IMG/VR virus record: IMGVR_UViG_2529293039_000008
Span: 1-4,056 of that record
Strand: one strand, 5' to 3'
Origin: a virus
Lineage: Duplodnaviria; Heunggongvirae; Uroviricota; Caudoviricetes
Length of the DNA stretch: 4,056 nucleotides
Under the pieces are notes generated by a model. The model did no database searches, was not told the origin of the DNA, and saw nothing but the letters and a program-made list of their open reading frames with translations. This document shows positions 2,933 through 3,769 of this stretch, one piece after another. Numbering within the stretch: the stretch's first letter is position 1; each line of letters starts with the position of its first letter. The position numbers were made by a program, and so were the translations under genes.

Positions 2933-3769
2933 ATGGCAGTAAAGATTTCAGGTGTACTGAAAGACGGCACAGGAAAACCGGTACAGAACTGCACAATCCA
3001 GCTGAAAGCAAAACGTAACAGCACCACGGTGGTGGTGAACACGCTGGCCTCAGAAAATCCGGATGAAGCCGGGCGTTACAGTATGGACGTTGAGTATGGC
3101 CAGTACAGCGTCACCCTGCTGGTTGAAGGTTTTCCTCCTTCGCATGCCGGGACCATCACAGTGTATGAAGATTCTCAACCCGGTACGCTGAATGATTTTC
3201 TCGGTGCCATGACGGAGGATGATGCCCGTCCGGAGGCACTGCGACGTTTTGAACTGATGGTGGAAGAGGTGGCGCGTAACGCTGAGGAGGCGAAGAAGAA
3301 TGCCGGAGAGGCGGAGACGTCAGCAAGGAATGCCGGCATATCAGCCAGTCAGGCGGAAAAGAGCGCTGCACATGCTGACACTTCAGCAGGATATGCATCG
3401 GAGTCAGCCCGGCAGGCGGCAGAAAGTGCAGCCTCAGCAAAGCAGTCAGAGGAGGCGTCCTCGTCCTCGGCCTCTGAGGCCGCTCAAAAAGCCAGTGAGT
3501 CATCACAAAGTGCAGCAGAAGCTGAATTGTCAAGAAAGACGGCAGAAAGTGCAGCCGGTAATGCAGCCAGGGATGCAACGACCGCAGCAGAAAAAGCCCG
3601 GGAGTCAGCAGAAAGCGCACAGTCAAGCGGAACAAAGCAGGATAGCGGCGGAAGACGCCGTAACCGAATCCCACCGTGGTGGGACCTCCGGGCCAACTGT
3701 CTCTTGATCAGATCTCCCGATCAAGAGACTTCATCACCAGGTAACCCTCAACCATATCCTGAAGTCTGA
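2933..3769 (+). CDS. stf: Side tail fibre protein Stf, N-terminal fragment, truncated by IS insertion. Stf-derived sequence ends at 3696; the open frame then reads 24 codons into the IS end before stopping at 3769.
   Basis: MAVKISGVLKDGTGKPVQNCTIQLKAKRNSTTVVVNT...YSMDVEYGQYSV...FPPSHAGTITVYEDSQPGTLNDFL...ARPEALRRFELMVEEVARNA matches the conserved N-terminal domain of lambda Stf as recalled, followed by the characteristic Ala/Ser/Glu-rich low-complexity segment. ATG at 2933 is preferred over the in-frame GTG at 2927 because of RBS spacing. The frame collides with an IS terminal repeat at 3697. Confidence 0.8.
   Translation: MAVKISGVLKDGTGKPVQNCTIQLKAKRNSTTVVVNTLASENPDEAGRYSMDVEYGQYSVTLLVEGFPPSHAGTITVYEDSQPGTLNDFLGAMTEDDARPEALRRFELMVEEVARNAEEAKKNAGEAETSARNAGISASQAEKSAAHADTSAGYASESARQAAESAASAKQSEEASSSSASEAAQKASESSQSAAEAELSRKTAESAAGNAARDATTAAEKARESAESAQSSGTKQDSGGRRRNRIPPWWDLRANCLLIRSPDQETSSPGNPQPYPEV
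3697..3715. repeat. Terminal inverted repeat of the IS50-like element, containing Dam GATC sites
   Basis: 19-bp end sequence beginning CTG. GATC at 3706-3709 and 3711-3714, with a third GATC just inside at 3719-3722. Confidence 0.7.

What the first reader, a model, noticed from the sequence alone, without database searches (positions are those of the whole stretch)
3697..3729. IS end carries an IS50 inside-end-like repeat, three Dam sites and a perfect 11-bp palindrome spanning the transposase stop codon
The 19 bp at 3697-3715 match the IS50 inside end as I recall it, yet the transposase C-terminus is only moderately similar to Tn5 Tnp, suggesting a distinct IS50-subgroup element. There are three GATC sites within 17 bp (3706-3709, 3711-3714, 3719-3722); in IS50 the Dam sites in the inside end couple transposition to replication and methylation state. 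In addition GTCTCTTGATC (3699-3709) and GATCAAGAGAC (3719-3729) form a perfect 11-bp inverted repeat with a 9-nt spacer that contains the transposase TGA stop. This hairpin could act on the 3' end of the transposase mRNA or impede readthrough from stf, but that is conjecture.
Basis: partly seen in the sequence, partly recalled or inferred. Interest (0 to 1): 0.5.

Follow-up and report, generated by a model that had tools for sequence, protein, structure and literature searches.

The report
ISEc13 end with conserved boundary hairpin
This is the transposase-3' end of ISEc13, a catalogued Tn5/IS50-like insertion sequence that has interrupted a prophage tail-fibre gene. Its terminal palindrome proves to be a hairpin kept by selection across a whole clade of such elements, though what it does is still inferred.

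Summary
Window 3697-4056 is the transposase-3' end of ISEc13, a catalogued IS4-family, IS50-subgroup element inserted in the stf gene of a lambdoid prophage. Its terminal 19 bp equal the IS50 inside end 19/19, although the transposases are only 39% identical.

Two GATC sites come with that end. The third is the mirror image of the first, inside the palindrome. The palindrome is real and IS50 lacks it. Every other E. coli copy examined has 13-bp arms and a 5-nt loop. The window's 11-bp/9-nt form rests on one private base (3718), in an assembly with evident homopolymer errors.

The new result concerns the inner arm (codons K-S-L-D). It is the reverse complement of the element end in relatives down to about 49% protein identity. 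Its synonymous sites are frozen: TCT 32/32, CTT 31/32 and AAG 20/20, against backgrounds of 16%, 17% and 32%. The loop varies from 5 to 16 nt. A hairpin is therefore under selection.

It is not an intrinsic terminator. Its function is inferred. Most likely it is an RNA boundary stem-loop, partner to a covarying terminator at the other end, in elements that insert at the apex of host terminator hairpins. RNA versus single-stranded DNA is unresolved.

The parts
3697..4056 (-). Partial ISEc13 (IS4 family, IS50 subgroup): the transposase-3' (inside-end-like) terminus plus 360 bp. The element runs off the window.
   Evidence: 359/360 identical to copies annotated 'IS4-like element ISEc13 family transposase' in E. 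coli E2348/69 and others. The full copy L001 2501-4050 is 1550 bp.
3697..3715 (+). 19-bp terminal repeat, identical to the IS50 inside end (CTGTCTCTTGATCAGATCT).
   Evidence: IS50L in Tn5 record L082. stf homology ends at 3696. Fits the IS50-subgroup end consensus CW------Y---CA-A--W- (PMC2266710, Table 1).
3699..3709 (.). Outer arm of the palindrome (end positions 3-13). In canonical copies it is 3699-3711.
3710..3718 (.). Spacer or loop: 9 nt here, 5 nt (3712-3716) in canonical copies. Base 3718 (C here, T elsewhere) is private to this copy and may be an assembly error.
3719..3729 (.). Inner arm of the palindrome. On the - strand it encodes ..K-S-L-D.. (AAG TCT CTT GAT C) of the transposase C-terminus. 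In canonical copies it is 3717-3729.
   Evidence: Synonymous sites are frozen across the clade.
3706..3709 (.). GATC site 1, at end positions 10-13. Conserved in at least 90% of 54 distinct relatives.
3711..3714 (.). GATC site 2, at end positions 15-18. Shared with the IS50 inside end and the enterobacterial clade; replaced by ACTTGTG in the marine clade.
3719..3722 (.). GATC site 3, the mirror image of site 1 in the inner arm. Present only where the codons are GAT C..
3708..3710 (-). Transposase stop codon (TGA).
   Evidence: ORF 3708..4034; the end coordinate includes the stop.
3711..4055 (-). Last 115 codons of the ISEc13 transposase (Tn5-type dimerisation domain).
   Evidence: Pfam PF02281, 27.7 bits. 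NCBIfam NF033590 profile positions 301-405. 40% identical to the IS50 Tnp C-terminus.
2933..3696 (+). 5' part of the prophage side-tail-fibre gene stf, cut by the IS. The reading frame continues 24 codons into the IS, to 3769.
   Evidence: 98.9% identical to 'prophage tail fiber N-terminal domain-containing protein' genes, with the alignment stopping at 3696. ORF 2927..3769.

Best explanation
Shown: the region is the transposase-3' (inside-end-like) terminus of ISEc13, an IS50-subgroup insertion sequence that has disrupted stf in a lambdoid prophage. The terminal 19 bp is the transposase-binding end and is identical to the IS50 inside end.

Shown: the palindrome is not an accident of this copy. 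The last codons of the transposase gene (K-S-L-D/E) are held, at the nucleotide level, as the reverse complement of end positions 3-11 (up to positions 1-13) across a clade spanning Enterobacterales, Vibrionales and Alteromonadales. The loop is free to vary in length and sequence. The selected object is therefore a folded single strand, not a fixed-spacing protein site on duplex DNA.

Inferred: it acts mainly as an RNA stem-loop at the very edge of the element. Any transcript crossing this boundary would acquire a stable hairpin of -19 to -24 kcal/mol within 2 nt of the IS border. That applies to the transposase mRNA reading out and to host RNA reading in (here stf). The hairpin would serve as a context-independent barrier to 3' exonucleases, that is, an insulator and not a terminator. 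It would be the partner of the canonical, covarying intrinsic terminator that most relatives carry just inside the other end. Both would be adaptations of elements that habitually insert at the apex of host terminator hairpins and so destroy them.

Inferred from identity with IS50: GATC sites 1 and 2 in the binding end make end use sensitive to Dam methylation. The third GATC is a by-product of the palindrome.
For: Identity and boundary.

IS50 inside end 19/19, and no palindrome in IS50.

Canonical 13-bp/5-nt hairpin in E. coli and Shigella copies, including decayed ones.

Family-wide conservation: 30 of 54 distinct ends have a perfect stem of at least 9 bp anchored at the terminus, and about 6 more have near-perfect stems.

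Nucleotide-level selection: among 32 distinct sequences, Ser is TCT 32/32, Leu is CTT 31/32, Lys is AAG 20/20 and Asp is GAT 15/16. Adjacent Leu, Ala and Gly columns use all their synonymous codons, at 1.85-2.5 bits. Gene-wide background in the same 37 elements is TCT 16%, CTT 17%, AAG 32%. The loci were retrieved through protein motifs far from the C-terminus, so the sample is not biased toward the arm.

Geometry: the loop ranges from 5 to 16 nt. The stop codon lies in the loop in some members and in the 3' arm in others. Pair 13 is G-C in ISEc13 and C-G in L017.

The window's private A-to-G change on the sense strand keeps a 13-bp stem through a G.U pair, at -23.9 kcal/mol.

Context: the 5' terminator has 12 pairs, 7 with compensatory changes, and a sense-strand U.G wobble in 11 of 23 sequences. 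The stabilities of the 5' and 3' hairpins correlate, rho 0.61, n = 38. In 17 of 19 reconstructed empty sites the duplicated 8-10 bp sits at the apex of a hairpin, mostly flanked by an A-run and a T-run. The IE-like side faces an incoming host ORF in 11 of 21 copies.

Precedent: the IS200 left-end terminator protects against impinging transcription (PMC4513863).
Against: No experiment or transcript data were available. The outer arm is the invariant binding site, so classical covariation is impossible for this helix.

Wobble-type exceptions show no strand bias, 4 sense against 7 antisense. RNA cannot be separated from single-stranded DNA, nor sense from antisense.

The hairpin has no U-tract on either strand and is not called as a terminator. 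The same scan does find the J and lom terminators.

The link with terminator targeting is imperfect. L038 and L094 lack the 3' hairpin yet sit in hairpin targets. The window's own target site is not a strong hairpin.

The co-occurrence of the 5' and 3' hairpins is not corrected for phylogeny and may reflect only one or two gain or loss events.

ISEc13 itself has lost the T-run of the 5' terminator.
Confidence: 0.4

Rival explanations
1. Single-stranded-DNA hairpin. On the lagging-strand template, or on transferred single strands, the end folds back and either hides positions 3-13 of the transposase-binding site or presents them as a duplex. This would modulate end use after replication together with the hemimethylated GATC sites.
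For: The stems are almost purely Watson-Crick (356 of 390 cells), with no excess of sense-strand G.U pairs. That is what a DNA hairpin predicts. DNA folding is favourable: -13.5 kcal/mol, z -5.3, for the canonical copy. The hairpin involves the end that carries the GATC sites. The hosts are Gammaproteobacteria; that these orders encode Dam is from my own knowledge.
Against: Cruciform extrusion from duplex DNA is implausible for the 9-bp stems with 13-16 nt loops seen in the marine clade. The mirrored GATC is not conserved, because clades that encode Glu lack it. No single-stranded intermediate is known for Tn5-type cut-and-paste transposases (established knowledge).
Confidence: 0.15
2. Translational brake for action in cis. 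The ribosome must melt the hairpin over the last 4-12 codons. This delays release of the C-terminal dimerisation helix, so the nascent transposase binds the adjacent end co-translationally.
For: The inner arm always lies inside the ORF, within the last codons, whatever the position of the stop codon. The C-terminus is the Tn5 dimerisation domain. Cis preference and C-terminal inhibition of DNA binding are described for Tn5 Tnp (my own knowledge, not checked here). In the marine clade a second coding hairpin with a compensatory pair lies about 20 nt upstream.
Against: Ribosomes unwind stems of this size with little delay. There is no rare-codon or stalling signature. The position of the stop codon relative to the stem is not conserved. 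No sense-strand wobble bias is seen.
Confidence: 0.12
3. A second, inverted copy of the end core acting on duplex DNA. It would be a decoy or auxiliary transposase-binding site that tunes use of the inside-end-like terminus.
For: The inner arm is an exact inverted copy of end positions 3-13 in ISEc13 and of positions 1-11 in L019, L021, L026 and L033. Sequence alone cannot tell 'complementary' from 'inverted copy'.
Against: The spacing between the two copies varies from 5 to 16 bp, which fits a hairpin better than a protein complex on duplex DNA. In most members only positions 3-11 are copied. That is not the part of the 19-bp end bound by the N-terminal domain in the Tn5 co-crystal (my own knowledge). 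In ISEc13, positions 1-2 are AA rather than CT.
Confidence: 0.1
4. No function of its own. The palindrome would be a by-product of a conserved K-S-L-D/E protein motif, or of recent shared ancestry.
For: K-x-L is also present in the IS50 Tnp C-terminus (AKDL), so part of the motif is constrained at the protein level. The window-level chance of an 11-bp inverted repeat is not negligible, at 4 of 300 shuffles.
Against: Synonymous third positions are frozen at 32/32, 31/32 and 20/20, against backgrounds of 16-32%, while flanking codons are saturated. IS50 encodes K-D-L with different codons and has no palindrome. The sequences come from more than 15 genera at 49-77% protein identity.
Confidence: 0.06

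Closest known systems
IS50 (Tn5) inside end
   Same: The 19-bp terminal sequence is identical (19/19). The transposase stop codon sits at the same position inside the end. Two GATC sites lie in the end and a third within 24 bp. The transposases are homologous, E 5e-95, with the DDE and YREK residues aligned.
   Different: The transposases are only 39% identical. IS50 has no inverted repeat involving the terminus, and its third GATC is a direct repeat, not a mirror image. ISEc13 has Gln where IS50 has Met56, the start of the inhibitor protein. The ISEc13 outside-end-like terminus has T at position 4.
IS200 left-end bidirectional rho-independent terminator (protection against impinging transcription; PMC4513863)
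   Same: It is a stem-loop built into the extreme end of an IS that deals with transcription crossing the boundary. The 5' end of most ISEc13 relatives carries just such a terminator, with covariation.
   Different: The feature in the window has no U-tract and lies at the transposase-3' end, inside the coding sequence. One of its arms is the transposase-binding repeat itself.
Fold-back structures in read-through transcripts of IS10 and IS50 that sequester the transposase ribosome-binding site (my own knowledge, not checked here)
   Same: These are RNA secondary structures that use sequence at or near a terminal repeat to make transposase expression independent of the insertion context.
   Different: Those act at the 5' end, on translation initiation. 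This one is at the 3' end and overlaps the stop codon.
3' stem-loop mRNA stabilisers such as REP elements (my own knowledge)
   Same: They are stable hairpins without a U-tract that can block 3'-to-5' exonucleases and define mRNA 3' ends. This is the mechanism proposed here.
   Different: There is no sequence relationship. This hairpin is part of a mobile element's end and of its coding region. The function is not demonstrated.

Membership tests
IS4 family, IS50 subgroup (definition of PMC2266710) | DDE catalytic triad | tested here: met
   D93, D193 and E323 are invariant in 17 relatives and align with the DDE residues of IS50 Tnp. Pfam DDE_Tnp_1 matches. Tested on the full copy L001; the window holds only the last 115 codons.
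IS4 family, IS50 subgroup (definition of PMC2266710) | Y(2)R(3)E(6)K motif | tested here: met
   Y316, R319, E323 and K330 are invariant. The sequence YERRWLIEEYHKAWK aligns with YTHRWRIEEFHKAWK of IS50.
IS4 family, IS50 subgroup (definition of PMC2266710) | End consensus CW------Y---CA-A--W- | tested here: met
   Window 3697-3715, CTGTCTCTTGATCAGATCT, fits at all seven specified positions (Table 1 of PMC2266710).
IS4 family, IS50 subgroup (definition of PMC2266710) | Length 1350-1550 bp, a single transposase ORF | tested here: met
   The full copy L001 is 1550 bp with one 457-aa ORF. The window copy is cut by the window edge.
IS4 family, IS50 subgroup (definition of PMC2266710) | Target duplication of 8-9 bp | tested here: met
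   8 bp in L001. Relatives show an apparent 8-10 bp; in palindromic targets the apparent length is ambiguous. Not testable for the window copy, whose other end lies outside the window.
ISEc13 (named element) | Near-identity to reference copies | tested here: met
   359/360 identical to copies that RefSeq annotates as 'IS4-like element ISEc13 family transposase', about 30 per E2348/69 genome. NCBIfam NF033590 scores 512 bits against a cutoff of 160. The ISfinder entry itself could not be consulted.
IS50 itself | Transposase essentially identical to IS50R Tnp | tested here: not met
   39% identity, 186/480.
Dam-regulated transposon end (IS50 inside-end type) | GATC sites inside the transposase-binding end | tested here: met
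   Sites at end positions 10-13 and 15-18. The first is conserved in at least 90% of 54 relatives.
Dam-regulated transposon end (IS50 inside-end type) | Transposase binding or transposition depends on methylation state | not testable with these tools
   This needs dam+/dam- transposition assays or gel shifts with methylated ends. For IS50 it rests on Yin et al. 1988, seen only as reference B4 in PMC3347997.
Rho-independent (intrinsic) terminator | G+C-rich stem-loop | tested here: met
   A stem of 11-13 bp, -19 to -24 kcal/mol. It is only about 40% G+C.
Rho-independent (intrinsic) terminator | U-tract immediately 3' of the stem | tested here: not met
   The + strand is followed by TTCATCACC. 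The - strand is followed by AG plus flank. There is no terminator call in 3500-4056, while the same scan finds the J and lom terminators.
Described RNA families (Rfam 15) | Match at the gathering threshold | tested here: not met
   No hits in the window, L001, L017 or L041.

The most novel reading that the evidence does not exclude
A large clade of IS50-like elements (ISEc13 and its Enterobacterales, Vibrio, Shewanella and Alteromonas relatives) has a three-part lifestyle that has not been described. (1) They insert at the apex of host terminator or REP-like hairpins. (2) Just inside the transposase-5' end they carry a covarying intrinsic terminator that replaces the one they destroy and shields the transposase gene. 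(3) They maintain, by recoding-resistant codons, a boundary hairpin made from the other terminal repeat and the last transposase codons. That hairpin caps transcripts at the second border. The palindrome in the window would be part 3.
Probability: 0.3. Interest if true: 0.6.

Novelty: new variant of a known kind. Interest (0 to 1): 0.45.

Why it matters
The element itself is catalogued, and the match to the IS50 inside end and its Dam sites is ordinary homology. What was not evident before is that the last codons of the transposase gene are held at synonymous sites so that they pair with the transposase-binding repeat. This holds across elements whose proteins have diverged to about 50% identity.

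That is a clean case of a coding sequence constrained by a nucleic-acid structure at a transposon border. Together with the 5' terminator and the preference for the apex of terminator hairpins, it suggests how a Tn5-like family limits the transcriptional damage of its own insertions.

The idea is directly testable with synonymous recoding in a genetically tractable Tn5 relative. It may also matter for Tn5-derived tools, because the natural relatives use end variants resembling the engineered mosaic end.

Tried and rejected
- RNAalifold on all 54 distinct 3' ends gave no consensus structure, because about a quarter of the sequences lack the helix. I used per-sequence stems and codon statistics instead.
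- Classical covariation for the palindrome is impossible, because the outer arm is the invariant binding site.
- A wobble-based strand test (G.U against A.C exceptions) was uninformative: 4 against 7 for this helix and 4 against 12 for the upstream helix.
- The intrinsic-terminator reading is rejected. No U-tract follows on either strand and no scan hit was found.
- No Rfam family matches.
- I searched for transposase-less derivatives (MITE-like end pairs), which would separate RNA-level from DNA-level roles. There were none in 87 loci. The single metagenome scan with TGATCAAGAGACAG returned mostly chance 14-mer hits, only about 7 real ends, and no derivatives.
- Literature: the 8 papers that mention ISEc13 are inventories. 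Reznikoff et al. 2004 on IS50 relatives is not held. No paper was found describing terminator-hairpin targeting by IS4-family elements.
- Cruciform extrusion in duplex DNA is rejected as a general mechanism, because marine-clade loops reach 13-16 nt.
- The idea that the IS hairpin plus the flanking T-run rebuilds a terminator is rejected. The T-run starts 13-14 nt beyond the IS end.
- An outward or inward promoter at the end is rejected: there is no promoter-like site and no room for one before the stem.
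Full report
OBSERVATION. Window 3697-3715 reads CTGTCTCTTGATCAGATCT. GATC occurs at 3706, 3711 and 3719, which is three of only six sites in a window where 14.0 +/- 3.8 are expected. Three sites within 17 bp arose in 1 of 300 dinucleotide shuffles. GTCTCTTGATC (3699-3709) and GATCAAGAGAC (3719-3729) form a perfect 11-bp inverted repeat with a 9-nt spacer. 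A perfect repeat of that length, with a loop of 3-20 nt, arose anywhere in the window in 4 of 300 shuffles. As RNA the region folds at -19.1 kcal/mol on the + strand (z -3.9) and -23.9 kcal/mol on the - strand (z -4.2). The transposase stop codon is 3708-3710 on the - strand, so it straddles the outer arm and the spacer.

WHAT THE ELEMENT IS. The 360 bp from 3697 to the window edge are 359/360 identical to copies that RefSeq annotates as 'IS4-like element ISEc13 family transposase'. Such copies occur in 1845 of 5426 complete E. coli genomes and about 30 times in EPEC E2348/69. A full copy (L001 2501-4050) is 1550 bp with one 457-aa ORF. The protein carries Pfam Tnp_DNA_bind, DDE_Tnp_1 and Dimer_Tnp_Tn5. 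It scores 512 bits on the NCBIfam IS4 equivalog NF033590 and matches the Tn5 transposase structures at E = 7e-83. The DDE and YREK residues are invariant among relatives and align with IS50. Length, end consensus and duplication size fit the IS50 subgroup as defined in PMC2266710, Table 1.

The boundary is right. Homology to uninterrupted prophage side-tail-fibre (stf) genes stops exactly at 3696. The context is a lambdoid tail module of J, lom and stf. The stf frame runs 24 codons into the IS and then stops.

COMPARISON WITH IS50. I recovered a real Tn5 record with a junction sequence recalled from memory, which matched 111/111, and read the IS50L inside end from it. It is CTGTCTCTTGATCAGATCT, identical 19/19 to the window, with the stop codon at the same place. 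The transposases are nevertheless only 39% identical overall (186/480) and 40% over the part encoded in the window. IS50 also has three GATC sites in its terminal 24 bp, so that count is not special. IS50 has no inverted repeat involving its terminus, and its fold is no better than shuffles, with z of -0.1 and -0.4. The palindrome is what sets the ISEc13 lineage apart.

THE GEOMETRY IN THIS COPY IS PROBABLY NOT THE NATIVE ONE. In E2348/69 the arms are 13 bp (GTCTCTTGATCAG / CTGATCAAGAGAC) with a 5-nt loop. The window differs by a single base, C instead of T at 3718, which changes Gln to Arg in the protein. No complete E. coli genome has the window's exact 64-nt end; 1192 records match at 63/64 or a little less. 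Diverged and decayed E. coli and Shigella copies keep the 13/5 form apart from single hits. In the same window, gene J differs from an intact J by three single-base homopolymer-length changes within 60 nt, which is a pattern typical of sequencing error. Base 3718 lies in a C-run next to a GATC. The 11/9 geometry is thus a private mutation or an error. On the transposase-sense strand the change still pairs as G.U.

THE PALINDROME IS CONSERVED AND UNDER NUCLEOTIDE-LEVEL SELECTION. A protein search found a graded family of relatives: 77% identity in Scandinavium and other Enterobacterales, about 72% in Serratia and Salmonella salamae, 56% for ISPlu9, 52% for ISPpr3 and about 50% in Vibrio, Shewanella and Alteromonas. 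Eighty genomic loci were then fetched through two protein motifs that lie far from the C-terminus, so the sample is blind to the feature. I located the ends by the string AGAGACAG, so the invariance of those 8 nt is by construction. The adjacent TGATCA is not by construction, and it is conserved in at least 90% of sequences.

In most relatives down to about 49% identity, the coding sequence just upstream reads AAG TCT CTT GA., the reverse complement of end positions 3-11. Of 54 distinct ends, 30 have a perfect stem of at least 9 bp anchored at the terminus, and about six more have one mismatch, a wobble or a one-base offset.

Is this only a conserved K-S-L-D/E motif? No. Among 32 distinct sequences encoding S-L, Ser is TCT 32/32, Leu is CTT 31/32, the preceding Lys is AAG 20/20 and Asp is GAT 15/16. 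The neighbouring Leu, Ala and Gly columns use every synonymous codon, at 2.5, 1.96 and 1.85 bits. In the rest of the same 37 genes TCT makes up 16% of Ser codons, CTT 17% of Leu and AAG 32% of Lys. Lineages without the hairpin use other codons or other residues; examples are ISPlu9-type elements (TCA/TCG GTG/GTT), L038, L060, L062 and L065, and the group at 43-46% identity.

WHAT KIND OF OBJECT IS SELECTED. The loop varies from 5 to 16 nt in length and is free in sequence. The stop codon lies in the loop in some members and in the 3' arm in others. The stem is extended in clade-specific ways: pair 13 is G-C in ISEc13 and C-G in L017, and four members pair right through the terminal CTG/CAG. 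Variable spacing with a fixed stem is what a folded single strand predicts, and not what a protein bound to two half-sites on duplex DNA predicts.

I could not go further by computation. The outer arm is the invariant transposase-binding site, so covariation is impossible, and the few wobble-type exceptions show no strand bias, 4 against 7. The hairpin is not an intrinsic terminator. The + strand continues TTCATCACC and the - strand leaves the element after two bases. The scan that finds the terminators after J (2218-2241) and lom (2895-2916) finds nothing here. No Rfam family matches.

CONTEXT FROM THE REST OF THE ELEMENT AND ITS RELATIVES. The other terminus is IS50 outside-end-like (CTGTCTCTTATACACAAAT). 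In most relatives it is followed, from position 16, by a textbook intrinsic terminator and then TTGAAC. RNAalifold predicts 12 pairs there, 7 of them with compensatory double changes, and one pair that is U.G in 11 sequences and C-G in 10. That wobble works only on the transposase-sense strand, so this structure acts as RNA on transcripts reading inward. It parallels the IS200 left-end terminator that 'protects against impinging transcription' (PMC4513863).

The 5' and 3' hairpins occur in the same clades: Spearman 0.61 between their folding energies, n = 38, not corrected for phylogeny. Reconstructing the empty sites of 19 copies shows that in 17 the duplicated 8-10 bp sits at the apex of a near-perfect hairpin, usually flanked by an A-run and a T-run. 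One example is the shared satP/mog terminator in E2348/69. These elements therefore destroy host terminators when they insert.

By a crude ORF heuristic, the outside-end-like side faces an incoming host ORF in 18 of 23 copies and the inside-end-like side does so in 11 of 21. The window's own target, in the repeat region of stf, is not a strong hairpin.

MOST LIKELY MECHANISM (INFERRED). I propose that the palindrome works as an RNA stem-loop at the extreme border of the element. Because it is a palindrome it forms equally in the transposase mRNA reading out and in host RNA reading in, which here means stf. It begins 2 nt from the border. Lacking a U-tract, it would not terminate transcription. 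It could instead stop 3'-to-5' exonucleases, giving both kinds of transcript a defined 3' end whatever the insertion context. On this view it is the second half of an insulation system whose first half is the 5' terminator. I put this at about 0.4.

The rivals are:
- a single-stranded-DNA hairpin that modulates end use after replication, together with the GATC sites (0.15);
- a translational brake that favours co-translational binding in cis (0.12);
- a decoy or auxiliary binding site on duplex DNA (0.10);
- no function of its own (0.06, contradicted by the synonymous-site data).

One experiment separates them: recode the inner arm synonymously either on the Tnp donor or on a transposase-less mini-element.

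DAM SITES. Site 1 (end positions 10-13) is conserved across the family. Site 2 (positions 15-18) is shared with IS50 and the enterobacterial clade, and is replaced by outside-end-like ACTTGTG in the marine clade. Site 3 is the mirror of site 1 in the inner arm and disappears where Glu replaces Asp. Dam control of end use is a reasonable inference from the 19/19 identity with the IS50 inside end, whose Dam sensitivity is established (Yin et al. 1988, seen only as a citation in PMC3347997). It was not tested here.

NOVELTY AND LIMITS. ISEc13 is catalogued, and its membership of the IS50 subgroup is routine. I found no description of the conserved 3' boundary hairpin, the 5' terminator or the terminator-apex targeting in the searchable literature. 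ISfinder and several subscription papers, including Reznikoff et al. 2004, could not be consulted, so prior description cannot be excluded. All functional statements are inferences from sequence.

Noticed in passing
window 1370-1435 (gene J): Compared with an intact J gene, the window has three single-base homopolymer-length changes within 60 nt: GGGG to GGG, AAA to AA, and T to TT. They split J into two overlapping ORFs (35..1462 and 1360..2199). The pattern looks like sequencing or assembly error and not like decay, and it casts doubt on other single-base peculiarities of the window, including 3718.
   Followed up: yes
L017 1395-1450, L041 1374-1429 and 21 other loci (alignment A6); L001 4013-4038 for ISEc13: Just inside the outside-end-like terminus, most relatives carry a canonical intrinsic terminator (stem from end position 16, T-run, then TTGAAC). 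It has 7 of 12 pairs showing compensatory changes, plus a sense-strand U.G wobble. ISEc13 itself has about 60 extra bp here and a hairpin (CACAAATCCCC/GGGGATTTGTG) without the T-run.
   Followed up: yes
Flanks of L001, L009, L014, L016, L017, L032, L036, L038, L039, L041-L043, L050, L052, L054, L055, L059; L094: The elements sit at the apex of host hairpins. In 17 of 19 reconstructed empty sites the 8-10 bp duplication is the loop plus the inner stem of a near-perfect palindrome, usually with A-run and T-run flanks (bidirectional terminators) or in REP-like CCCTCTCCC..GGGAGAGGG repeats. This looks like a strong structural target preference, and I did not find it described.
   Followed up: partly
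Alignment A2 columns 35-45 / 53-63 (for example L018 1361-1389): The marine clade (Vibrio, Shewanella, Alteromonas), but not ISEc13, has a second coding-region hairpin about 20 nt upstream of the terminal one (AAGGATGGTTT / AAACCATCCTT). Its codons are frozen (ACC ATC CTT) and it has a compensatory pair (U-A in 33 sequences, C-G in 7) linked to an F..T to L..A amino-acid switch.
   Followed up: partly
L001 4032-4050 (reverse complement) and the relatives: The outside-end-like terminus is CTGTCTCTTATACACAAAT. It is IS50 outside-end-like but has T at position 4, as in the inside end and, from memory, as in the engineered hyperactive mosaic end. The marine clade's inside-end-like terminus is itself a natural mosaic (CTGTCTCTTGATCACAAGT).
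   Followed up: no
L001 protein residue about 50 (alignment): ISEc13 Tnp has Gln where IS50 Tnp has Met56, the start of the Inh inhibitor protein. The family consensus has no Met there either, so this lineage probably lacks an Inh-type inhibitor.
   Followed up: no
24 loci with both flanks: There is an orientation bias. The nearest flanking ORF on the outside-end-like side reads toward the IS in 18 of 23 copies, that is, the transposase gene is co-directional with the upstream host gene. On the inside-end-like side the split is 11 against 10. This rests on a crude ORF heuristic.
   Followed up: partly
L001 2965-3382, + strand (antisense to the transposase gene): There are five terminator-like sites on the strand antisense to the transposase gene, against 1.7 +/- 1.4 in shuffles, for example GGCGGGCTGCCCGCCCGCC TTTTT at 3120-3138. 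They might stop antisense read-in. They lie outside the window.
   Followed up: no
window 3726-3733 / 3760-3767: An 8-bp perfect inverted repeat (AGACTTCA / TGAAGTCT) overlaps the last four bases of the inner arm. It could form an alternative pairing that competes with the terminal hairpin. It is only partly conserved in the relatives at 73-77% identity, judged by eye.
   Followed up: no
window 2927-3769: The stf reading frame continues through the IS end and the palindrome for 24 codons before it stops. This copy would produce a truncated Stf with an IS-encoded tail, so the side tail fibre is almost certainly inactivated.
   Followed up: partly
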